From contig CAMYML010000001.1 of the NCBI GenBank assembly GCA_947259305.1, forward strand, positions 1-52,014: DNA of 52,014 nt. Direction: 5' to 3'. Under the pieces are notes generated by a model that did no database searches, was not told where the DNA came from, and saw only the letters and a program-made list of their open reading frames with translations. Shown one piece after another: positions 42,563-51,458 of this stretch (position 1 is the first letter of the stretch; every line of letters begins with the position of its first letter). This DNA comes from an uncultured Gammaproteobacteria bacterium. Lineage in GTDB: Bacteria; Pseudomonadota; Gammaproteobacteria; GCA-001735895. The position numbers and the translations under genes were made by a program.

Positions 42563-44278
42563 ATGGATCCCTACGATATTCTCGGCGTCCCGCAGAACGC
42601 AACCCAGGAAGAGATAAAAATAGCCTACCGCAGGGAAGCCATGAAGTGGCACCCGGATAGATGCAATAACTCATCCGTAGCGAAGGAACGATTTCACCAG
42701 GCAGCGGAAGCCTACAAAATCCTGTCCGAAAAAAAAGCCACAGCCGGCGATGGCGGCTTTGGCGCGAGACCGTCCGCAGCGCATCGGGACCAACGATCGA
42801 AGCCCGGAAAATCCGAGCGCCACGGGGATTCGCATTATTCCGCAGGCGCTTCGGAGGACAAATTCGCCGACTCGGTATTCTGGGATGTAATGCTCGATTA
42901 TGCGATCAAACTTGCGCAAACTGGATTGAGCGAACAGGAAATTTCGATCAACATTTCTAAAAACGGCTGTCCCGAGAGGCTGGCGGCAGTCATAGCGGAC
43001 AAGGCGTTTAATATTCATGCTCACTATGCGTCGAATTCGGCCAGGCAACGCAAGCACGGAGCGGATAAGTCCACGTTTAACCAGGAAAGACTCGAAACTG
43101 AATTACTCAGAGCCTTTCTCGGTCAGCGAAACCTGGTCTGGAGCCCGAGAGATACCATTGAATACTACCTGGTGGTTTGCCAGGAATTCAGGCAGTCCGC
43201 AAAATTAAACCCCTTATCCTGGATAAACACGAACCGGCGTTTGATGAGAATTCTAAATTTCTCGATTATTTTGTTCGCCGTGATTATCCTGGCGATCAAT
43301 TTTTATCCAGGGCCATCAAAATACAGACTTTTACCCGATATCGCCATGCTGCAGCTGCCGTTTGCGGTGCTTCCCCTGATGTTTGCCTGGACGATATACC
43401 GCAAGCTCTGGAGCTTTACGCTTATTCTCTGGGTTGCATATCTGGGCACGATTGCCTTTTTTAATTCCTATATGCCGCCCGCGCTAAACGATGACCTGAC
43501 ATCTGTATTGCCAATCGCGGCTATTTGTTTCGCACCCTTTTTATTTATTGCGCTGTTTGGCAATTATTTCTACTACCGCAAAGCACAAAATATGATCCGC
43601 TCGGCGGATCGCCTGTTTGCAGAACATCTGGATAAAATTGTCTGGATTAAAAACAGGGCGGGCACATCCAGCATGGCGGCGTTCATGTTTTTGCTTGTTT
43701 TCTATGCTTCGCTGATCTATCTCGTGCCCCGCAACGCCGAATTTTCAAATGCATACAGTTTTGGCTTGCCAGGCATGGATATCGTAAAAGATGACGCCGA
43801 AACCAAAAAAATAAAACTTCGACTAGAAGAAGCAAACCAGTTTTTTGAGATTGCCGAAGCAAACTTCAATAACTCACCACCCGATTATATGCAGGCCGAA
43901 ATGGCATATAGCACCGCCGCGGACAACGGGTCCTTGCTGGCAGCTTACAAGCTGGGCTATATGTATTATGTCGGCGCAGGAGTCAGGCAGGATGATGTGT
44001 TGGCTTTCGAATATTTTGCACAGGCTACCAGGGCGCCACTGGCTTTCCAGCCGCACAGCTTGCAGCTAACGACGAAATTTTTAGCCGAATCCTACAACAG
44101 CCTGGGCATCATGCTGCAAGGCGGATATGGCACCAGAAAAAATCTGAAAAAAGCCTATGAAATGTATAGTCGAGGTGCAGAATTTGGCTCCAGGGATGCG
44201 GAGCTTAATCTAAAAACGGTATATAAATCTGTTGCCGCTACCGGACGCAGGCGCCTGGCGAGTCCCATCTACGAATAA
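42563..44278 (+). CDS. J-domain + multi-TM (DUF2628-like) + Sel1-repeat protein
   Basis: DPYDILGV...KWHPDR; about 5 TM segments with WTIYRKLW and GNYFYYRK; AYKLGYMYYVGAGVRQD, YNSLGIMLQGGYGTRKN. Confidence 0.8.
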   Translation: MDPYDILGVPQNATQEEIKIAYRREAMKWHPDRCNNSSVAKERFHQAAEAYKILSEKKATAGDGGFGARPSAAHRDQRSKPGKSERHGDSHYSAGASEDKFADSVFWDVMLDYAIKLAQTGLSEQEISINISKNGCPERLAAVIADKAFNIHAHYASNSARQRKHGADKSTFNQERLETELLRAFLGQRNLVWSPRDTIEYYLVVCQEFRQSAKLNPLSWINTNRRLMRILNFSIILFAVIILAINFYPGPSKYRLLPDIAMLQLPFAVLPLMFAWTIYRKLWSFTLILWVAYLGTIAFFNSYMPPALNDDLTSVLPIAAICFAPFLFIALFGNYFYYRKAQNMIRSADRLFAEHLDKIVWIKNRAGTSSMAAFMFLLVFYASLIYLVPRNAEFSNAYSFGLPGMDIVKDDAETKKIKLRLEEANQFFEIAEANFNNSPPDYMQAEMAYSTAADNGSLLAAYKLGYMYYVGAGVRQDDVLAFEYFAQATRAPLAFQPHSLQLTTKFLAESYNSLGIMLQGGYGTRKNLKKAYEMYSRGAEFGSRDAELNLKTVYKSVAATGRRRLASPIYE

Positions 44279-44348: not shown

Positions 44349-45842
44349 TCAAGACTGGAATTCGAATTCCTGATCCAGTGGGAATATCGGGCGCGCGACA
44401 TTGTGGTAAGTCAATCGCTCATAACGGGGAGTGCAGAGTGCGCCACTGTCGCAGACGATAACCTGGTCGGCGATCGGCTCGAAATCAGCCCGAAAATGCT
44501 GCATCGATTTCAGCACGACGACGCGCTTCGAGGCCGGATCGATGCCGAAGCACCTGAACTGTTGCAGGTCGAGCAGCTGCTGGGCCAGGCTGGTTACCAG
44601 GATTTCGATGCCGTCGACGCGTACCACCGCGGTCGGACCGAAACAGCGCCGTAAGCCACCGATCATTGCGCCACCTCCGATATAATGCCCGTCGCTTAAG
44701 GTTATCAGTTCCACCCGCAGATCGAGCGGGCCTCCGCCACGGTCGGGATCTACCTTGCCGCCGAGCTTAATCCCGACCCGGTCTCCTGGTTGGTGCAGGC
44801 AAAGCTGCTTTACGGTTTCAGCATCGACCATCGGGCCGAAACAGGCGTCGGAAACCCGGGCCCGAAGCAGCGCGCTCAACAGGTTGGTGGCATCGCCGTA
44901 TGCGCCTGCACCCGGATTATCCGCGTAGTCGGCGATTACCAGCGGCCCGTTGGCGCTGTGGAACTTCGCCGCGATCGCCGCGGCCTTATCTACCTCCAGA
45001 TAGTCATTCAATACCTCGTGGCGATGCTTCCAGATGTCGCCGGCTATGCCTTTGGCAAAATCAATATGCGGATTCATGTCGCCCGTCGCGGTTACCACGA
45101 CGCTGGCCCCCGCCTGCCTGATGTCGGCGCTGGGGAAGCCGGCGTTGATGCTGACGGCACAGGTGTCGTCGCGCTGTTCCCAGTCCCTGGCGGCGCGGAT
45201 CCACTCGATCATCGGGCCGCTATCCGTGCGCCCGCCGTTGGCTTCTTCGAGCATCGGGCAACTTACGCGGATGCTGCGCGGGCTGATTTCCCGGTTAAGG
45301 CTACGCTGTAGTATTTCACCGGCATGTCGCGCGGTTTCGCGCATATCGATATGCGGGTAGGTTTTGTAAGATACGATAATATCGGCCAGTTCGCACATTG
45401 TCGTGCTGACATTGGCATGCAGATCGAGGGTTATGGCAATGGGTATGTCATCTCCCGTCAGCGCGCGTAAACGCTGCAGCAGTTCGCCCTCGCCATCATC
45501 GCAAAAGTCCGTGACCATGGCGCCATGCAATCCGAGCAATATGCCGTCAAACTGTGCGCTCGCGACCGCGGCAACGATGGTATTGGCCAGCCAGTCGAAG
45601 GCTGCGGAAGTTACCTTGCCACCGGGACCGGCACCCGCGCTGAGGACGTGCTCGATCCGCCAGCCGTACTTCCTGCCGATATCCAGAAAACCGGCCAGTT
45701 CGGTATTATGTTCGCCCCGCTCCAAGATGGCTTCTGCTCCGCCGAGCACAAAGCAATCCTTGAAGGCCCGTTCGTCGGTCGCGATACGACTGAAGGTGTT
45801 GGTTTCGTGTTTGAATTCCGCGCTGAGTATTCGATAGCTCAT
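44349..45842 (-). CDS. M81-family (MlrC-like) metallopeptidase
   Basis: HETNTFS, LHGAM, LDLHAN, TYPHID, DNPGAG, VVLKSMQHFRADF. Confidence 0.92.
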   Translation of the reverse strand: MSYRILSAEFKHETNTFSRIATDERAFKDCFVLGGAEAILERGEHNTELAGFLDIGRKYGWRIEHVLSAGAGPGGKVTSAAFDWLANTIVAAVASAQFDGILLGLHGAMVTDFCDDGEGELLQRLRALTGDDIPIAITLDLHANVSTTMCELADIIVSYKTYPHIDMRETARHAGEILQRSLNREISPRSIRVSCPMLEEANGGRTDSGPMIEWIRAARDWEQRDDTCAVSINAGFPSADIRQAGASVVVTATGDMNPHIDFAKGIAGDIWKHRHEVLNDYLEVDKAAAIAAKFHSANGPLVIADYADNPGAGAYGDATNLLSALLRARVSDACFGPMVDAETVKQLCLHQPGDRVGIKLGGKVDPDRGGGPLDLRVELITLSDGHYIGGGAMIGGLRRCFGPTAVVRVDGIEILVTSLAQQLLDLQQFRCFGIDPASKRVVVLKSMQHFRADFEPIADQVIVCDSGALCTPRYERLTYHNVARPIFPLDQEFEFQS

Positions 45843-45978: not shown

Positions 45979-46308
45979 CTAAACATTTTTTTCCTCGTCA
46001 TACCAGAGGTAAAACTCGAGCTCTTCGAACAGCTCCAGTTCATCCTCGCTGGCGATCACGGCAAGTTCGTCGGCGGTCATTTGCGGCAATTCAGCCGGGT
46101 TATCGCTGCGACTCACCAGGATACCGATCAAGACCACTAGCAGGCAGGAAAACGCCGTTGCCGGGACCCAGCGCGGAATCGCGCCGCGCGTTTCCTGCTC
46201 CAGCGCAGCCATGCGCGCCGTCTTCAAGGCCTTGCTGGTATCCGGGTCCAGGGTCTGGCGATCGAATGCCTGTTTGAACTCTTTTTGAAGTTGCTGATCT
46301 TTATCCAT
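45979..46308 (-). CDS. Putative single-TM anti-sigma factor (DUF3619-like position)
   Basis: GGAG RBS, ATG 46308 overlapping the sigma stop; LKTARMAALE helix, one TM, acidic tail EDELELFEELEFYLWYDEE. Confidence 0.72.
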   Translation of the reverse strand: MDKDQQLQKEFKQAFDRQTLDPDTSKALKTARMAALEQETRGAIPRWVPATAFSCLLVVLIGILVSRSDNPAELPQMTADELAVIASEDELELFEELEFYLWYDEEKNV

Positions 46309-46825
46309 CTTCTTCTCCCAATATACGGCGCAGCTGTTGCGTCGCGCGTGCATAGTGTGTTTTGACGCTGCTTTCCGAAATCGAAAGCGCAAACGCGGTT
46401 TCGCGGGTGCTGAATTCCTGCCAGGCGCGCAGCAGAAAGGTTTGCTGCTGGCGTAATGGCAGCTGGTCCAGGGCCATGATCACGCGTTTCAGCTCGTCGT
46501 CGAGCTGGACCTGGTCCTCGGCCGATGCGGCGAAGTTTTCCGTTTCGGTCGCGCTGGCCTGCCACGGCATCAGGCCGGTGAGCACCTGGCGAAACTTTTG
46601 CTTTCTGAACCAGTCCCTGATCGAATTTTGCAGGATCCGATAGAACAACGGACCCCACTCGTCCGCATCGCGGTGCCGATACTTTTGCACCAGTTTCAGC
46701 ATGCTGTCCTGCACCAGCTCGAGCGCGTCATGGTGGTTGTGGGTCAACGCCATCGCCATTAAATATGCCTTTTGCTCCGAGTCGCGAAAAAATAAATCCA
46801 GGGCCTGTCTGATTGGCTGATCCAC
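46301..46825 (-). CDS. ECF RNA polymerase sigma factor
   Basis: DALELVQDSMLK, LFYRILQNSIRDWFRK, LPLRQQQTFLLR, SESSVKTHYARA. Confidence 0.92.
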   Translation of the reverse strand: MDQPIRQALDLFFRDSEQKAYLMAMALTHNHHDALELVQDSMLKLVQKYRHRDADEWGPLFYRILQNSIRDWFRKQKFRQVLTGLMPWQASATETENFAASAEDQVQLDDELKRVIMALDQLPLRQQQTFLLRAWQEFSTRETAFALSISESSVKTHYARATQQLRRILGEEDG

Positions 46826-46829
46826 GGGG

Positions 46830-47702
46830 CTACAGCATCCATCGCAGGCCCAGCGTCAAACCGACGCTGTCGTCCAGCGGCAGGGCTGTGGCGGCTGCAA
46901 GCAAATAACCAAAACGCTGGCTGGCCCAATGCTGCCAGCTCAGCATAAGCGTTTCGTCATAACTCTCGTCAATCGCGGATTGTGCCTGTGAAATCTGCAG
47001 CGAGTAGTCATTGTCGTAATCGGCATGACCCAGCAGCAATGAAGCATTCTGCGATATCAGCAACGAACTCTGCGCCAGCGTCGACGACTTGACGATAAAG
47101 CGGGCAAAAACGCTGCGGTTCAAGGCGCGCAAATCTTTTTCGTAGTCGTAACGCAGGTAATTCACCTGCCAGTACCAGGGATCGCCCTGCCAGCCAAGCG
47201 ATACGCCGAATCCCGAAACATCGGTGGCGTAGCTATCCGGCACGAAACTGTCGAAAAAGTCTGAATCGATAGCGCGCGTGAAAAAAAGCGTTTCGCCTTC
47301 CTCGAGCTGTACCCGGAAATTCCATTCGCCCTGGTCCAGCGCCAGCGCGAGCCCCAGGGTTTCCTTTTCCAGCTCGCCCTCGTTGCCCTCGAAAAAATAC
47401 TGAACTTCGATGTCGAGCAGTTGTGACAGCTGAAACCATAGCGTGGTTACCAGGGTCAGGCTGTCAAATTCCTGGTCCAGGTCGCTGAGCTCGGTCTCGC
47501 CGTAGTAGCCGTAATATCCCATCCGCTCTCCGAGCGGCAGGCTCAGCAACAGGGCCCGGCTCGAATCCTCGACTTCGTCCTCGCCCAGGTCGATGCCGAC
47601 CAGGATTGGTTGTTCGTCCTCGAGGCCAATCCATTCCTCGGCGCCGAGACAGGGTACGGGTGACAGCGCAAAAACAAGAAGCATGATGTTCAGCCGGCTC
47701 AT
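46830..47702 (-). CDS. Hypothetical exported protein, probable outer-membrane beta-barrel
   Basis: Signal peptide; amphipathic strands (FGVSLGWQGDPWYWQVNYLRYDY); C-terminal GLTLGLRWML. Confidence 0.6.
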   Translation of the reverse strand: MSRLNIMLLVFALSPVPCLGAEEWIGLEDEQPILVGIDLGEDEVEDSSRALLLSLPLGERMGYYGYYGETELSDLDQEFDSLTLVTTLWFQLSQLLDIEVQYFFEGNEGELEKETLGLALALDQGEWNFRVQLEEGETLFFTRAIDSDFFDSFVPDSYATDVSGFGVSLGWQGDPWYWQVNYLRYDYEKDLRALNRSVFARFIVKSSTLAQSSLLISQNASLLLGHADYDNDYSLQISQAQSAIDESYDETLMLSWQHWASQRFGYLLAAATALPLDDSVGLTLGLRWML

Positions 47703-48181
47703 GAATCATGATTTCGCTTGTCTCTGTGTCGCTGCAGCCAGCGTTTGCGCTGCGCCGGTGTCATTCGTTGCCAACGCTCGCGGTATTGCCTGCGCTGGTC
47801 AGCCGGCAGGCTGCGGAAGCGTTTAAAGGCCTTACGCACCCTGGCCTTTTGTTCCGGCGTCAGGTTCTGGAACTTCTTGAAGCGCTCCTTGATCGCATCC
47901 CTTTGTTGCTGGCTGAGCTGCTGCCAGCGTTTGAAACGTTGTCTCATCTGCGTGCGCTGCGCCGGCGTCATGTCCTTCCAGCGCTCGGCGCCGCGTAACA
48001 TCCGGGCGCGTTTATCCTGGTCGAGTTCCGACCAGCGTGCTTCGAAGGGCTTCAGAATTCGCTGCTGTTCCTGGCTGAGTTCGTCCCAGGATTGCGCCGC
48101 GACAGACAAGGGGAATGCCAGCGTCGCCAGCAGCAACAATCCCGGAATCAGCTTCTCAGCAAAGCAGGTTAGACTTCTCAT
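47699..48181 (-). CDS. DUF3106-like periplasmic helical-repeat protein
   Basis: Signal peptide; (W/F)xxLxxxQ(R/K) repeats: WDELSQEQQ, WKDMTPAQR, WQQLSQQQR, FQNLTPEQK, FRSLPADQR, WQRMTPAQR. Confidence 0.82.
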   Translation of the reverse strand: MRSLTCFAEKLIPGLLLLATLAFPLSVAAQSWDELSQEQQRILKPFEARWSELDQDKRARMLRGAERWKDMTPAQRTQMRQRFKRWQQLSQQQRDAIKERFKKFQNLTPEQKARVRKAFKRFRSLPADQRRQYRERWQRMTPAQRKRWLQRHRDKRNHDS

Positions 48182-48390
48182 TCGCTGTTTACCTCATTTT
48201 TTGGCGCGACGTCTTTAAGCGCATGATGCTCGAGCAGTTGCCAGGTTTGTTCATCGATCGGTTCGAGGTCGCCCAGAAATTCGAGCATTGCCGCGGAGGG
48301 TAAATCCTGGTCTGGCGCGGCCTGATGCGCATCCGCCTGCGCCATCGTCGGCCAGGCCAGGGCCATCACCAGGATTATTCCCGTTCGCAC
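48178..48390 (-). CDS. Small secreted hypothetical protein (about 70 aa)
   Basis: GGGGA RBS + GTG at 48390; signal ending AQA; LPSAAMLEFLGDLE; ATGA overlap with DUF3106-like gene. Confidence 0.62.
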   Translation of the reverse strand: MRTGIILVMALAWPTMAQADAHQAAPDQDLPSAAMLEFLGDLEPIDEQTWQLLEHHALKDVAPKNEVNSE

Positions 48391-48457
48391 AAACAATTCC
48401 CCCATAGCAGGATGGGGGAATTGTAACAAGCTGCCATAATCATGCACCGGGTTAATC

Positions 48458-50266
48458 TTACTCCGTTATGCGGGTGACCAGCTGGCGCGCCGACAACAGC
48501 AGGTTGATCGCGCTGTAGTGGCCCTTGGCGATGACGAACACCACCTGGTAACCGTCGGCGAGTCTGCGCTTGAGTGCTGCCTGGTAGGCGTTCCAGCTCA
48601 GGTACACGTGAACCCTGCGTCCCTGGCTAATGGCGTATAAGCCGAGATCGGCGCCCGGCACGATAAATGGCACTTCGGGCAGGGTTGCGATGTCGGTGAT
48701 TACGCCCGCCTGTTTCAAATGATGCCGGCCTGTGGCCGAACTCAGGTCGAGGCGCATGCCGGATTCGTCGAGGCTGACCACGGCGGTCGGGCTGCCCGCG
48801 GCGCCGTAGGAGATTAACATTTTGCTCGGCAATTCGCTCAGGTCGGCGATGGTTTTGGCGGTGAAATCGAGTGGCGCGCTGCCGAACGGGGTGGGGAAGC
48901 CTTTTACCCTGACCGGTTCGAACAGCGCCAGGCTGTTCAGGCTCAACGGACCGCTGTCGATCTGGTAATGATCCGGGTCTGCGTCTTCTCCCGGGCCGCT
49001 GCCGGTGCCGGCGAAATTGTAACGCTCGACCATGCGGCGGTTGACGTGCTGCAGATCGACTTCGAGCGGCGATACCGATGCCACCAGGCCAGAGACCTGG
49101 CTATAGCGCATGCGCAGCAGTTCGCCTTCGGCGTTGAGCGTATCGCCAGTATCGTTGAGATGACCGAGCACGGTAACCTTCTGGCCGACGCTAATCGCGG
49201 CAATCGTATGACCGTTGCCGGTATCACCCTGTTTGGTGACCCTGGTATTTTCATCGATCAACACTTCGATCTCGTCGTTGAAACTGAAATGCCCGTCATC
49301 GAATTCGACGGTCGCACCCAAAACGGTGAGGCTGTTGCCTGAGCGCGCGATAACGCTGCCTTTGACGACATCCTTGTCACCCCAGGGCACGCTGCTGCCG
49401 GCCAGTACCTGCTGCGCGAGGAAACGTCGGTCGCCGTAATTAACCGTGCCCAGCGCCACCAGCGGCGTCAGGCCGGATTGACGCGCGAGCGCCTCGAGAC
49501 CCTCGCTCTGGGCGTAAGCGACACCGTCGATCTCGAACACGGTTTCGGCGTTGGTGGACGCGGTAATCCTGCCGAAATCCCGATGCCGGATGCGAAACGG
49601 GCGCAGCTTGATATTAAAGGTTTCGCGTTCCAGGTTAACGCCCGCCAGCAGACCGCGCAGGCGGCGGGTTTTTTCGTCTTCGATGCTGGTGTTGGCGAGC
49701 AGGATCGGATTGACCATGACGTTGGCGCTATTGCCATTGATGACGACTTCGTTAGATGCCTCGAGGTCGAAATCGAGGATCAGCGCCGCCGGCTGCCCGG
49801 CTTTGATGTGAAATCCGCTGTGCGCATTGACCACGACTTCGAGCGTGACGCTTCCCAGCGGATTACCCATTTCATCTTTCGGGTAACCCGGAATCGAATT
49901 CCCGTTTTCATCCTCTACGGTAATTTCGGCATTGCTGAAATCGAGTGCGATTTCCGCCTTGTCGTAACTGCCGACCGGCACCGTCGCGGTGGACAGAAAT
50001 TCGGTGACTTCGACGTAGCGGGAAAAGTCCAGGCGCGCGCTGTTCGGCAGCGTCTCGATTATCGCTCCGTTCGACCTGTACAGCTTGATGCTGTCGACAT
50101 CGATGGTGTACTGGTTGAAATCACCCTCGGCATCGGTCAGCGAGATGGTCAGTTCGCTGGTTTCTTCGGCGCTGTCGCTGCTGTCGGAACCGCAGGCGGC
50201 GAGCGCAACTGCGGCGAAGCTGATAAGCAGGATCCAGATAGTCTGCCTGATAGTGGTTAAGGTCAT
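48458..50266 (-). CDS. DUF4382-like lipoprotein with C-terminal OB-like (DUF5666-type) repeats
   Basis: Lipobox LAAC; LTISLTDAEGDF, VPVGSY, ILDFDLEASN, VNP; KGSV..LTVLG..IDENTRV..ISVGQKVTVLG. Confidence 0.78.
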   Translation of the reverse strand: MTLTTIRQTIWILLISFAAVALAACGSDSSDSAEETSELTISLTDAEGDFNQYTIDVDSIKLYRSNGAIIETLPNSARLDFSRYVEVTEFLSTATVPVGSYDKAEIALDFSNAEITVEDENGNSIPGYPKDEMGNPLGSVTLEVVVNAHSGFHIKAGQPAALILDFDLEASNEVVINGNSANVMVNPILLANTSIEDEKTRRLRGLLAGVNLERETFNIKLRPFRIRHRDFGRITASTNAETVFEIDGVAYAQSEGLEALARQSGLTPLVALGTVNYGDRRFLAQQVLAGSSVPWGDKDVVKGSVIARSGNSLTVLGATVEFDDGHFSFNDEIEVLIDENTRVTKQGDTGNGHTIAAISVGQKVTVLGHLNDTGDTLNAEGELLRMRYSQVSGLVASVSPLEVDLQHVNRRMVERYNFAGTGSGPGEDADPDHYQIDSGPLSLNSLALFEPVRVKGFPTPFGSAPLDFTAKTIADLSELPSKMLISYGAAGSPTAVVSLDESGMRLDLSSATGRHHLKQAGVITDIATLPEVPFIVPGADLGLYAISQGRRVHVYLSWNAYQAALKRRLADGYQVVFVIAKGHYSAINLLLSARQLVTRITE

Positions 50267-50303
50267 GGTTAATCCCCGTTTTTCGGTTATCGTTACCCTT
50301 AAT

Positions 50304-50330
50304 AACGCGTGACCTCGAATTCGGTTGACA
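50304..50330 (-). promoter_or_regulatory. Putative ECF-sigma promoter for the lipoprotein-to-anti-sigma operon
   Basis: Minus strand TGTCAAC-N16-CGTT, 37 nt upstream of ATG 50266; fits the generic ECF AAC-N16/17-CGT pattern. Confidence 0.6.
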
Positions 50331-50693: not shown

Positions 50694-51458
50694 CTATTCG
50701 TCCTCTTCGGCCAGCAGCGATAAATCGCGCGCGGCGTCGCGTAACAGTGGAATATACCTTTCGCTGTCCTCGGTCTTGATGCGGGAAACCGGCGCCTGGA
50801 TCGCCAGTGAGCTGTAAAATCTTCCCTGCTTATCCTCGATCGGTACCGCGATCGCGATAATGTCGTCGTACAACTCCTCGTTGTCGATCGAGACTTGCCG
50901 TTTTTCGATGTTGTCGAGTTCCTCGAGCAGGGCATCGGGGTCGGTAATCGTATTCTTGGCGTGGCGCTCGAGTTGCAGTTTGTTTATTACCGCGCGACGT
51001 TTGGTTTTGGGCAGCGTGCTCAGGTAAAGTTTACCGCTGGCGGTACAGTACAGCGGTACGCGCATGCCGATCGGAAACTGCAGCCGCAGCGGCGCCGAAG
51101 TCTCAACGCGATCGGAATAGGCCATGTAAAGCCCGTCGGCGTAGGCGATGTTGCAGGTTTCACCGACTTTTTCCGAGAGCGCGGTCAGGATGGCGTGGCG
51201 CGTGGCGCGCAACCTCGAATTTGCCATTACGCCGACCGCGACGTCATGCAGGCGATTGCCGGGCACGTAACTCTTGCCGTTGATTTTCTTTAGCAGGTAA
51301 CCGCGCGCTTCCAGCTCCGCGCACAAACGATGGGCGGTTGCCTTCGGCAGGTGCAAAATCTCGTTGATTTCGGTTGCGCTGATCGGTTTCGGCGAAGCCG
51401 CAACCGCATCGAGTATATCCAGCACACGCTGGATGGTTGAACCGCGTTCGCGTCTCAT
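50694..51458 (-). CDS. IclR-family transcriptional regulator
   Basis: LPKATAHRL HTH, VGETCN, PLYCTASGK, DNEE, IAIAVPI. Confidence 0.93.
   Translation of the reverse strand: MRRERGSTIQRVLDILDAVAASPKPISATEINEILHLPKATAHRLCAELEARGYLLKKINGKSYVPGNRLHDVAVGVMANSRLRATRHAILTALSEKVGETCNIAYADGLYMAYSDRVETSAPLRLQFPIGMRVPLYCTASGKLYLSTLPKTKRRAVINKLQLERHAKNTITDPDALLEELDNIEKRQVSIDNEELYDDIIAIAVPIEDKQGRFYSSLAIQAPVSRIKTEDSERYIPLLRDAARDLSLLAEEDE

What the first reader, a model, noticed from the sequence alone, without database searches (positions are those of the whole stretch)
45979..50330. Six-gene ECF-sigma envelope operon with lipoprotein, beta-barrel and its own ECF-type promoter
Seen, minus strand: TGTCAAC-N16-CGTT promoter, 602-aa DUF4382-like lipoprotein, ~70-aa secreted protein, DUF3106-like protein, 290-aa putative barrel, sigma, single-TM protein; the last five overlap or lie within 4 nt. 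Known: this sigma type commonly neighbours DUF3619/DUF3106 genes, and ECFs often autoregulate. Inference: a TonB-independent surface-signalling chain from outer membrane to sigma, with the barrel displaying or partnering the lipoprotein. Stimulus unknown.
Basis: partly seen in the sequence, partly recalled or inferred. Interest (0 to 1): 0.72.

Follow-up and report, generated by a model that had tools for sequence, protein, structure and literature searches.

The report
SigAb-type envelope switch with extra parts
This is a real, conserved six-gene operon built on a known type of stress sigma-factor switch (ECF37, the group of Acinetobacter SigAb), with three unstudied additions: a small secreted acidic peptide that likely helps set the switch, a large lipoprotein that is likely its main output, and a predicted 14-strand outer-membrane barrel that likely partners the lipoprotein rather than being needed to carry a signal in.

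Summary
All six genes, their spacing and the TGTCAAC-N16-CGTT site are there, and the site is the only strong one in the genome. The sigma / single-pass anti-sigma / DUF3106 core and the promoter match group ECF37. They also match A. baumannii SigAb-AabA-AabB, whose GTCAAC/CGTT promoter and anti-sigma genes were tested experimentally (PMC12153292; sigma 35% identical). The lipoprotein has the motif upstream in 69 of 80 loci, even when far from the sigma gene, so it looks like an output. The 290-aa protein is predicted to be a 14-strand barrel and is not Slam-like. It co-occurs with the lipoprotein (24 of 27 lipoprotein genomes), but 66 of 97 ECF37-type genomes have neither gene. An obligatory outer-membrane-to-sigma chain is therefore not supported. 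The 70-aa peptide is an overlooked core part: 42 of 60 sampled ECF37 loci have it, always just before DUF3106. Its binding to DUF3106 got weak predicted support (0.60, best control 0.00). The stimulus is unknown; predicted targets in relatives are nearly all exported proteins. Verdict: new variant of a known kind.

The parts
50304..50330 (-). ECF37/SigAb-type promoter, -35 TGTCAAC(C), 16-nt spacer, -10 CGTT
   Evidence: Sequence; unique in genome; same motif upstream of 69 of 80 homologous lipoprotein genes, against 1 on the reverse strand and 0.19 in shuffles; matches the predicted ECF37 motif and the tested SigAb core
48458..50266 (-). 602-aa lipoprotein: N-terminal DUF4382 beta-sandwich followed by OB-fold domains; likely main output
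   Evidence: Pfam; invariant lipobox Cys; model pLDDT 85.6; structural matches only to generic OB folds, Z about 8, and no whole-protein match
48393..48424 (-). 13-bp RNA hairpin whose 3' arm holds the likely ribosome-binding site of the small gene
   Evidence: Fold z -3.5; in 19 selected homologous hairpins 91.9% of cells pair and 4 pairs change on both sides; slid controls pair 43-55%
48178..48390 (-). 70-aa secreted acidic peptide (signal peptide, then an LEFLG motif), no Pfam family; alternative start ATG 48405
   Evidence: Present directly before DUF3106 in 39 of 60 held-out ECF37 loci by profile and in 3 more by eye; no fused form among 15 longer hits, all 94-110 aa; weak predicted binding to DUF3106
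47699..48181 (-). DUF3106 protein, 160 aa, signal peptide, very basic (pI 11.6), 18-residue helical repeats; AabB counterpart
   Evidence: Pfam E 5e-31; pI; the profile hits the third gene of the A. baumannii operon at E 3e-18
46830..47702 (-). 290-aa predicted 14-strand outer-membrane beta-barrel, unnamed family, no TPR domain
   Evidence: AlphaFold model; best structural matches are FadL homologue Z 19.1 (rmsd 4.0, 253 aligned), BAM-complex chain Z 18.8 (3.6, 251), Omp33 Z 18.5 (2.5, 191) and OmpG Z 17.2 (3.6, 218); no Pfam or NCBIfam family for the window protein; 93 representatives at 50% clustering
46301..46825 (-). ECF sigma factor, ECF37/SigAb type, GTG start
   Evidence: Sigma70_r2 and r4_2; NF006550 163 bits, just under the cut-off of 173; 35% identical to the A. 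baumannii sigma
45979..46308 (-). 109-aa single-pass anti-sigma candidate with an acidic periplasmic tail ending in the conserved ExLEFYxWL motif; AabA counterpart
   Evidence: Hydrophobic stretch from about residue 48; DUF3619 E 0.086, below cut-off; tail consensus; the profile hits the A. baumannii second gene at E 1e-7

Best explanation
The operon is likely a self-activating ECF37 (SigAb-type) envelope-stress switch: the membrane anti-sigma would hold the sigma factor, periplasmic DUF3106 would clamp the anti-sigma's acidic tail with the 70-aa acidic peptide as a predicted second ligand, and release of sigma would mainly turn on the lipoprotein, with the barrel as its likely outer-membrane partner on the output side. 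Shown here: the genes, the single strong promoter, conservation, co-occurrence and homology to the SigAb operon. Taken from SigAb (tested there, not here): sigma reads GTCAAC/CGTT, and both downstream genes lower sigma activity. Inferred: DUF3106 protects the anti-sigma tail from proteolysis, as RseB does for RseA. The longer DUF3106 form binds the small peptide as well, giving a three-part clamp. Stress in the periplasm or outer membrane pulls DUF3106 off, the anti-sigma is degraded and sigma fires the one promoter. The hairpin and a non-ATG start keep the regulators and barrel scarce relative to the lipoprotein. New anti-sigma and DUF3106 then shut the loop.
For: Core and motif match the ECF37 description. 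The A. baumannii locus has a sigma over the NF006550 cut-off, an anti-sigma hit, an annotated DUF3106 and GTCAAC-N17-CGTT. The paper reports that a 16-nt spacer works and that an AlphaFold model wraps AabB round the periplasmic end of AabA. Lipoprotein as output: motif upstream in 69 of 80 loci (79 relatives plus the window; one near-duplicate left out). Of 21 genomes where the lipoprotein had no sigma beside it, 15 have an NF006550 sigma elsewhere, and 25 of 27 lipoprotein genomes in the class draw are ECF37-positive. Regulon type: of 60 hand-picked motif sites in relatives, 32 of 36 high-scoring sites precede an ORF with a signal-peptide-like start, against 7 of 24 low-scoring sites and 19 of 600 random positions. 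Targets include glycine-zipper lipoproteins, OmpA, small barrels, EF-hand and charged-repeat proteins, and DUF1800. Small peptide: always directly before DUF3106 across gene orders. DUF3106 has a mean of 6.4 repeats where the peptide was detected (n=39) and 3.75 where it was not (n=20); the A. baumannii form has 3 repeats and no peptide. The charges are opposite. Predicted complex DUF3106 plus peptide: weak support, score 0.60, best of 3 controls 0.00. That mark was reached by 116 of 157 solved and 2 of 215 mismatched pairs, but at 0.60 or under by only 18 of the 157 and by both mismatches. Runs agree in at least 81% of contacts, and partner pLDDT is at least 64. Barrel with lipoprotein: within 97 ECF37 genomes, both 24, lipoprotein only 1, barrel only 6, neither 66; the 24 span 17 families. 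The barrel stays beside the module even on the opposite strand in 9 of the 52 well-flanked loci.
Against: Nothing was tested in this organism. In C. metallidurans the region upstream of rpoR (ECF37) was not RpoR-dependent in a reporter (PMC13492112), so autoregulation is not universal. The barrel is often not under this promoter: only 4 of 26 stand-alone barrel genes have a strong site and 2 more are borderline, which also fits a constitutive or input role. Lipoprotein-barrel co-occurrence is clustered on the sigma tree (12 changes against about 21 in shuffles). The independent-pairs test had only 2-3 supported pairs and could not reach significance. The repeat-count difference uses a pattern tuned on window-type proteins, kin are not independent, and 3 of the 20 'without' loci have a divergent peptide by eye. 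The peptide shows no profile homology to the anti-sigma tail (1.2%). In the SigAb paper AabB alone also lowered activity, which a simple RseB-like model does not explain. Proteolysis is assumed. The known SigAb regulon (itself, relA, an sRNA) differs from the one predicted here.
Confidence: 0.55

Rival explanations
1. One reading: lipoprotein and barrel form a surface sensor that signals through the peptide and DUF3106 to the anti-sigma, without TonB.
For: All six genes lie in one operon in 19 of 52 well-flanked loci and are clustered in 32. On the 89-row tree set, 29 of 30 barrel-bearing genomes have the small peptide and the last is cut off. Most stand-alone barrel genes lack the promoter, as a constitutive sensor would. 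Auto-induced sensors exist, for example FecA (recalled).
Against: 66 of 97 ECF37-type genomes have neither gene, and 34 of the 89 tree rows have the peptide with neither. The barrel has no long N-terminal signalling domain; the mature chain is almost all barrel. The SigAb operon works without them nearby.
Confidence: 0.15
2. The core is as described, but the barrel is an ordinary small-solute channel (FadL/OmpG/CymA-like) with no physical tie to the lipoprotein; both are inherited together in one lineage or niche.
For: Porins tie with FadL-family chains in the fold search, and the Atlas neighbours of a homologue with a Pfam family are OmpG, autotransporter and porin clusters. Four near-complete genomes have the barrel and no DUF4382 match, and three of them have their own strong promoter site. 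The trait is clustered on the tree.
Against: 24 of 27 lipoprotein genomes have the barrel, against 6 of 72 ECF37 genomes without the lipoprotein. The pairing persists on separate contigs and in opposite orientations. In several loci the two genes are direct neighbours without the core (L032, L033, L036, L069).
Confidence: 0.2
3. The module senses a metal directly, like CnrYXH, with DUF3106 or the peptide binding copper.
For: SigAb responds to copper about 2.5-3.5-fold and is needed for copper and nickel resistance. RpoR is linked to cobalt and nickel resistance. One OB domain of the lipoprotein has SilF as a tied top fold match (Z 8.3, rmsd 3.4, 77 aligned), and two adjacent His columns are conserved in 90% and 67% of lipoproteins.
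Against: No His or Cys column reaches 40% in the DUF3106, peptide or anti-sigma-tail alignments, and there are only two Met columns in DUF3106. Predicted targets are envelope proteins, not metal pumps. The SilF match ties with generic OB folds.
Confidence: 0.1

Closest known systems
SigAb-AabA-AabB of Acinetobacter baumannii (Bacon et al. 2025, PMC12153292; parts 1-4 of 10 of the main text and passages read, supplements not seen)
   Same: Same promoter core GTCAAC/CGTT. Sigma 35% identical over 172 residues. Anti-sigma of about 107 aa with one central TM helix. Periplasmic third gene, annotated DUF3106 in the record fetched. That the fetched locus is sigAb is inferred from gene order, sizes and promoter.
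   Different: SigAb has no small peptide, a short 3-repeat DUF3106, no lipoprotein or barrel nearby, a 17-nt spacer, and a direct regulon of sigAb, relA and an sRNA. Here the regulators sit at the end of the operon, behind the lipoprotein.
ECF group ECF37 (Casas-Pastor et al. 2021, PMC7826278; supplement passages read, file cut when stored), including RpoR of Cupriavidus metallidurans
   Same: Single-TM anti-sigma at +1, DUF3106 in the cluster, predicted motif TGTCAACC / CGTT, Proteobacteria.
   Different: DUF3106 lies upstream of sigma here, not at +2. The passages read list no small secreted peptide, DUF4382 lipoprotein or barrel. The rpoR upstream region was not RpoR-dependent in a reporter (PMC13492112, passages).
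FadL-family 14-strand barrels that hold a partner: BamG with surface lipoprotein BamH (PMC12611786, passages) and PorV (role recalled)
   Same: Predicted 14 strands; chains of these complexes are among the top fold matches; weak profile similarity to FadL (44%, reversed control 3.5%).
   Different: About 270 residues against 345-445, and 6-10% identity. Plain porins score about as well. No partner binding is shown.
Slam / type 11 secretion (DUF560; PMC5449769, passages)
   Same: 14-strand barrel encoded near a lipoprotein.
   Different: No TPR domain. Profile similarity is 1.9% against a shallow 5-sequence Slam alignment. The lipoprotein model has a beta-sandwich and OB folds, not the eight-stranded TbpB barrel.
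RpoE-RseA-RseB and CnrYXH (as described in PMC12153292 and recalled)
   Same: Sigma, single-pass anti-sigma and a periplasmic co-regulator in one operon.
   Different: Different promoter; DUF3106 has no sequence match to any solved structure (best E 0.06).

Membership tests
ECF37 / SigAb-type system | ECF sigma (regions 2 and 4 only) of the PRK09047/NF006550 type | tested here: met
   Sigma70_r2 and r4_2. NF006550 is by far the best model at 163 bits, next 76, though 10 bits under its cut-off. Many neighbours on the tree pass the cut-off.
ECF37 / SigAb-type system | Assignment by the ECF-group HMM of the published classification | not testable with these tools
   No ECF-group models are on hand; NF006550 was used as a proxy.
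ECF37 / SigAb-type system | Single-TM anti-sigma at +1 | tested here: met
   109-aa gene overlapping the sigma stop, one hydrophobic stretch; its profile hits the A. baumannii second gene. Anti-sigma activity itself is untested.
ECF37 / SigAb-type system | Anti-sigma usually carries DUF3619 | tested here: inconclusive
   PF12279 E 0.086, 13.7 bits against a cut-off of 22.2.
ECF37 / SigAb-type system | Conserved DUF3106 gene in the cluster | tested here: met
   E 5e-31. It lies upstream here; relatives show the usual downstream order.
ECF37 / SigAb-type system | Promoter TGTCAACC / CGTT upstream of the sigma operon | tested here: met
ECF37 / SigAb-type system | Promoter activity depends on this sigma | not testable with these tools
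   Needs a reporter. Shown for SigAb, not seen for RpoR.
Slam (DUF560) translocon | N-terminal TPR domain | tested here: not met
   The model is barrel from residue 34 to the end; no TPR family hit among 90 members.
Slam (DUF560) translocon | DUF560 barrel sequence family | tested here: not met
   No PF04575 hit among 90 members or in this genome. hhalign gave 1.9% against a shallow alignment, so a remote relation is not excluded.
Slam (DUF560) translocon | Substrate with an eight-stranded TbpB-like barrel | tested here: inconclusive
   The whole-length model matched OB folds; residues beyond about 390 were barely tested and domains were not folded separately.
FadL / PorV / BamG family | 14-strand barrel | tested here: met
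   Prediction only.
FadL / PorV / BamG family | Toluene_X sequence family, N-terminal tail through the pore, lateral opening | tested here: inconclusive
   No PF03349 hit; hhalign 44%. The N-terminal stretch before strand 1 is short and low-confidence, and coordinates could not be inspected.
TonB-dependent cell-surface signalling (FecI/R/A type, features recalled) | 22-strand TonB-dependent receptor with a signalling domain and FecR-type anti-sigma | tested here: not met
   14 strands, 290 aa; no FecR or TonB-receptor family hits.

The most novel reading that the evidence does not exclude
The 70-aa peptide is a secreted anti-anti-sigma that competes with the anti-sigma tail for DUF3106, a periplasmic partner switch present in most sampled ECF37 systems and so far unnamed. 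The barrel is a new BamG/PorV-like, non-Slam anchor or exporter that puts the DUF4382 lipoprotein on the cell surface of Proteobacteria.
Probability: 0.2. Interest if true: 0.75.

Novelty: new variant of a known kind. Interest (0 to 1): 0.47.

Why it matters
ECF37-type sigma factors were found in 97 of 400 sampled genomes of this class, yet only two members turned up with experiments in the library searched (SigAb and RpoR), and how they are switched is open. This work ties SigAb to that wide group, names a fourth core part that most sampled members have and Acinetobacter lacks, and gives a predicted regulon of exported envelope proteins. It also gives an unnamed barrel family and a DUF4382 lipoprotein a shared context and a direct test of partnership. 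The operon is self-contained, with one strong promoter in the genome, so it can be rebuilt in E. coli. The sigma switch itself is conventional.

Tried and rejected
Obligate surface-signalling chain: rejected on distribution. Slam identity of the barrel: not supported. Peptide as a homologous copy of the anti-sigma tail: hhalign 1.2%; only the general acidic, amphipathic character is shared. Wider regulon in this genome: no second strong site; three other DUF4382 genes here lack the motif. Other DUF4382 genes in ECF37 genomes: an exact motif lay in 2 of 13 loci, both in one genome. MlrC and IclR neighbours as members: seen beside the operon only in close relatives among the first 12 loci; not checked in the larger sets. 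Spy/CpxP/CnrX relation of DUF3106 (recalled idea): no PDB sequence match, and its structure was not predicted alone. Fold searches gave no whole-protein match for the lipoprotein. RNA evidence: one metatranscriptome with a small share had two contigs on the lipoprotein gene; contigs cannot show transcription, so this was not used. A recalled link to P. aeruginosa PA3281-PA3285 was only searched by listing and not followed up. The phylogenetically independent test of lipoprotein-barrel pairing had too few supported pairs. The barrel-lipoprotein and DUF3106-anti-sigma complexes were not predicted, because the one job went to DUF3106 plus peptide. Literature: DUF3106/DUF3619 gave 3 papers, ECF37 gave 3, DUF4382/DUF5666 gave 7 with 6 listed. 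From the listings, none describes this six-gene form. The library lacks most subscription journals, and unseen supplements (SigAb paper, bioRxiv files) may bear on this.


Full report
Observation. The order is promoter (50330-50304), 602-aa lipoprotein, 70-aa secreted peptide, DUF3106, 290-aa protein, ECF sigma, 109-aa single-pass protein. Junctions are +67, -4, -4, +4 and -8 nt. The exact motif occurs once in the 4.29-Mb assembly, which is 93% complete. A matrix trained on homologous sites gives it 36.3 bits against 14.2 for the next site. Named relatives are mostly uncultured Gammaproteobacteria.

What the core is. The supplement of Casas-Pastor et al. 2021 (PMC7826278, passages) defines ECF37 by a single-TM anti-sigma at +1, DUF3106 at +2 and the predicted motif TGTCAACC / CGTT. 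The window's sigma matches NF006550 best (163 bits, cut-off 173). An earlier scan note (e1-755602) pointed to A. baumannii SigAb, and I tested this. The window sigma finds an A. baumannii sigma at 35% identity. That locus has a 106-aa gene hit by my anti-sigma profile, an annotated DUF3106, and GTCAAC-N17-CGTT upstream; its sigma passes the NF006550 cut-off. Its upstream genes (RNA methyltransferase, fructose-bisphosphatase, Pal) match the context given for ECF37s3, so SigAb is very likely ECF37. In PMC12153292 (parts 1-4 of 10 read), mutagenesis defined the core as GTCAAC and CGTT, a 16-nt spacer worked, AabA and AabB lowered sigma activity, copper induced the promoter about threefold, and a model wrapped AabB round the periplasmic end of AabA. 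Against a simple generalisation, the rpoR upstream region of C. metallidurans was not RpoR-dependent (PMC13492112, passages).

The lipoprotein. It has an invariant lipobox cysteine, a DUF4382 domain and OB folds in a confident model, with no whole-protein structural match. Residue +2 is not Asp, which by the recalled rule points to the outer membrane. The genome scan kept the best 80 of 182 loci, so it leans to close relatives. The motif lay within 300 nt upstream in 69 of 80 (79 loci plus the window; L035 left out as a near-duplicate), against 1 on the reverse strand and 0.19 in shuffles. The pattern left one position free and all 69 had the consensus T there. Of 52 loci with 3 kb on both sides, 39 carry the four-gene core, 34 the barrel, 32 all six genes and 11 the lipoprotein alone; gene order varies. 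Where no sigma lay beside the lipoprotein, 15 of 21 genomes had one elsewhere. This is how a dedicated target behaves.

The barrel. The best model is a 14-strand barrel (pLDDT 78.8; the other four models were poor). Top matches are FadL homologues, chains of Bacteroidota BAM and type 9 complexes, Omp33, CymA and OmpG, at Z 17-19 and 6-10% identity. The family is divergent and unnamed. It has no TPR domain and no profile link to Slam (1.9%), and a weak link to FadL (44%; reversed control 3.5%). BamG, a FadL-family barrel that anchors a surface lipoprotein (PMC12611786, passages), is a precedent for partnership but not a test of it.

Distribution. One class-wide draw of 401 genomes (400 scored; only the top 3-7 candidates per genome were scored) gave 97 with an ECF37-type sigma, 27 with the lipoprotein (one weak partial match left out) and 31 with the barrel. 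25 of 27 and 30 of 31 are ECF37-positive. Within the 97, both genes are present in 24, lipoprotein only in 1, barrel only in 6 and neither in 66. So neither is needed for this kind of switch, but the two travel together. Limits: the trait is clustered on a quick sigma tree of 89 rows, and the independent-pairs test had too few supported pairs. The pairing is not obligate: four near-complete genomes have the barrel and no DUF4382 match, and a complete chromosome has lipoprotein and core with no barrel match; in all, the barrel was found in 6 of 32 genomes chosen for lacking a linked barrel, most of them MAGs. Only 4 of 26 stand-alone barrel genes have a strong promoter site, three of them in genomes without the lipoprotein. 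This leaves the barrel's role the least settled point.

The small peptide. It sits directly before DUF3106 in every gene order seen. The count of 51 of 51 in the lipoprotein loci is circular, because the profile was built from them. In 60 other ECF37 loci, picked down the score list from the 97, the profile found it in 39, and three more have a divergent secreted acidic ORF in the same slot. It is missing from the A. baumannii operon. DUF3106 has more 18-residue repeats where the peptide is present (mean 6.4 against 3.75), with the caveats that kin are not independent and the pattern was tuned on window-type proteins. The peptide and the anti-sigma tail are acidic and DUF3106 is basic, but the two acidic segments show no profile homology. 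Co-folding DUF3106 with the peptide gave weak support: 0.60 against a best control of 0.00. That mark was reached by 116 of 157 solved and 2 of 215 mismatched pairs, but at 0.60 or under by only 18 of the 157 and by both mismatches; runs agreed in at least 81% of contacts, and partner pLDDT was at least 64. Earlier scan notes describe similar peptides beside DUF3106 in other ECF systems; these are unchecked AI notes.

The hairpin. Between lipoprotein and peptide genes a 13-bp stem covers the likely ribosome-binding site. In 19 hairpins chosen as homologous, from 25 loci of this order, 91.9% of cells pair and four pairs change on both sides; slid controls pair 43-55%. The structure came from the window row and the rows are related, so this is supportive only. 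It would plausibly favour lipoprotein over regulators.

What the switch responds to. The motif is enriched in ECF37 genomes: 198 sites in 61 genomes (reversed control 133), against 15 in 19 genomes without (control 53). From the 150 listed of 213 sites I picked 60, mostly not directly ahead of module genes. 32 of 36 high-scoring sites precede an ORF with a signal-peptide-like start by a simple rule, against 7 of 24 low-scoring sites and 19 of 600 random positions. Pfam on 42 of these ORFs gave glycine-zipper lipoproteins, OmpA, small barrels, EF-hand and charged-repeat proteins and DUF1800. The periplasmic regulators have no conserved His or Cys. An envelope-integrity signal is therefore more likely than direct metal binding, though copper could act through envelope damage. 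This step is inference.

Mechanism and verdict. Most likely the anti-sigma holds sigma at the inner membrane, DUF3106 and the peptide clamp its tail, envelope stress loosens the clamp, and sigma fires one promoter whose main product is the lipoprotein, with the barrel as its outer-membrane partner (0.55). Rivals are a true surface-sensing chain (0.15), an unrelated channel (0.2) and direct metal sensing (0.1). It works like RpoE-RseA-RseB and SigAb-AabA-AabB and meets the testable ECF37 features. It is not a Slam or TonB-dependent system. The searches listed no description of the peptide, the lipoprotein target or the barrel. New variant of a known kind; interest 0.47.

Noticed in passing
L260:2352-3741: The A. 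baumannii sigma operon, very likely sigAb, has the gene context listed for ECF37s3 and passes NF006550. SigAb was described as Acinetobacter-specific but appears to belong to a group found in about a quarter of sampled genomes of the class.
   Followed up: partly
L141, L159, L162, L163, L173, L174, L186, L191: A secreted protein of charged RLDRRG-like repeats often sits behind the ECF37 motif, frequently as the first gene before sigma; its only Pfam hits are below cut-off, mostly Apolipoprotein.
   Followed up: partly
L140, L177 (DUF1800); L170, L194, L196 (EF-hand); L148, L152, L154, L155, L172, L175, L188 (glycine zippers): Recurring predicted ECF37 targets in other families.
   Followed up: partly
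L125:5973-8757: The barrel is divergent from the sigma operon and is followed by its own motif and a shorter 297-aa DUF4382 lipoprotein, a different partner type.
   Followed up: partly
L050, L051, L074, L075; G122, G208, G425: A shorter lipoprotein form of about 480 aa lacks the C-terminal domain but keeps the promoter in most and the barrel in five of these seven genomes.
   Followed up: no
L031, L059, L071: DUF3106 (L031) or the lipoprotein (L059, L071) is split into two frames; may be assembly error or decay.
   Followed up: no
window 50297-50286 (- strand): A short motif GTAACGATAACC just after the -10 box is kept in close relatives; role unknown.
   Followed up: no
window 44349-45842 and 50694-51458: An MlrC-family metallopeptidase downstream and an IclR regulator upstream, same strand; beside the operon only in close relatives.
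   Followed up: partly
window 42563-44278 (+): 571-aa protein with an N-terminal DnaJ domain, hydrophobic middle segments and C-terminal Sel1 repeats.
   Followed up: no
L135:576: The motif precedes a 448-aa lipoprotein that looked like an S41 peptidase (recalled, not tested), about 4 kb from a barrel gene.
   Followed up: no
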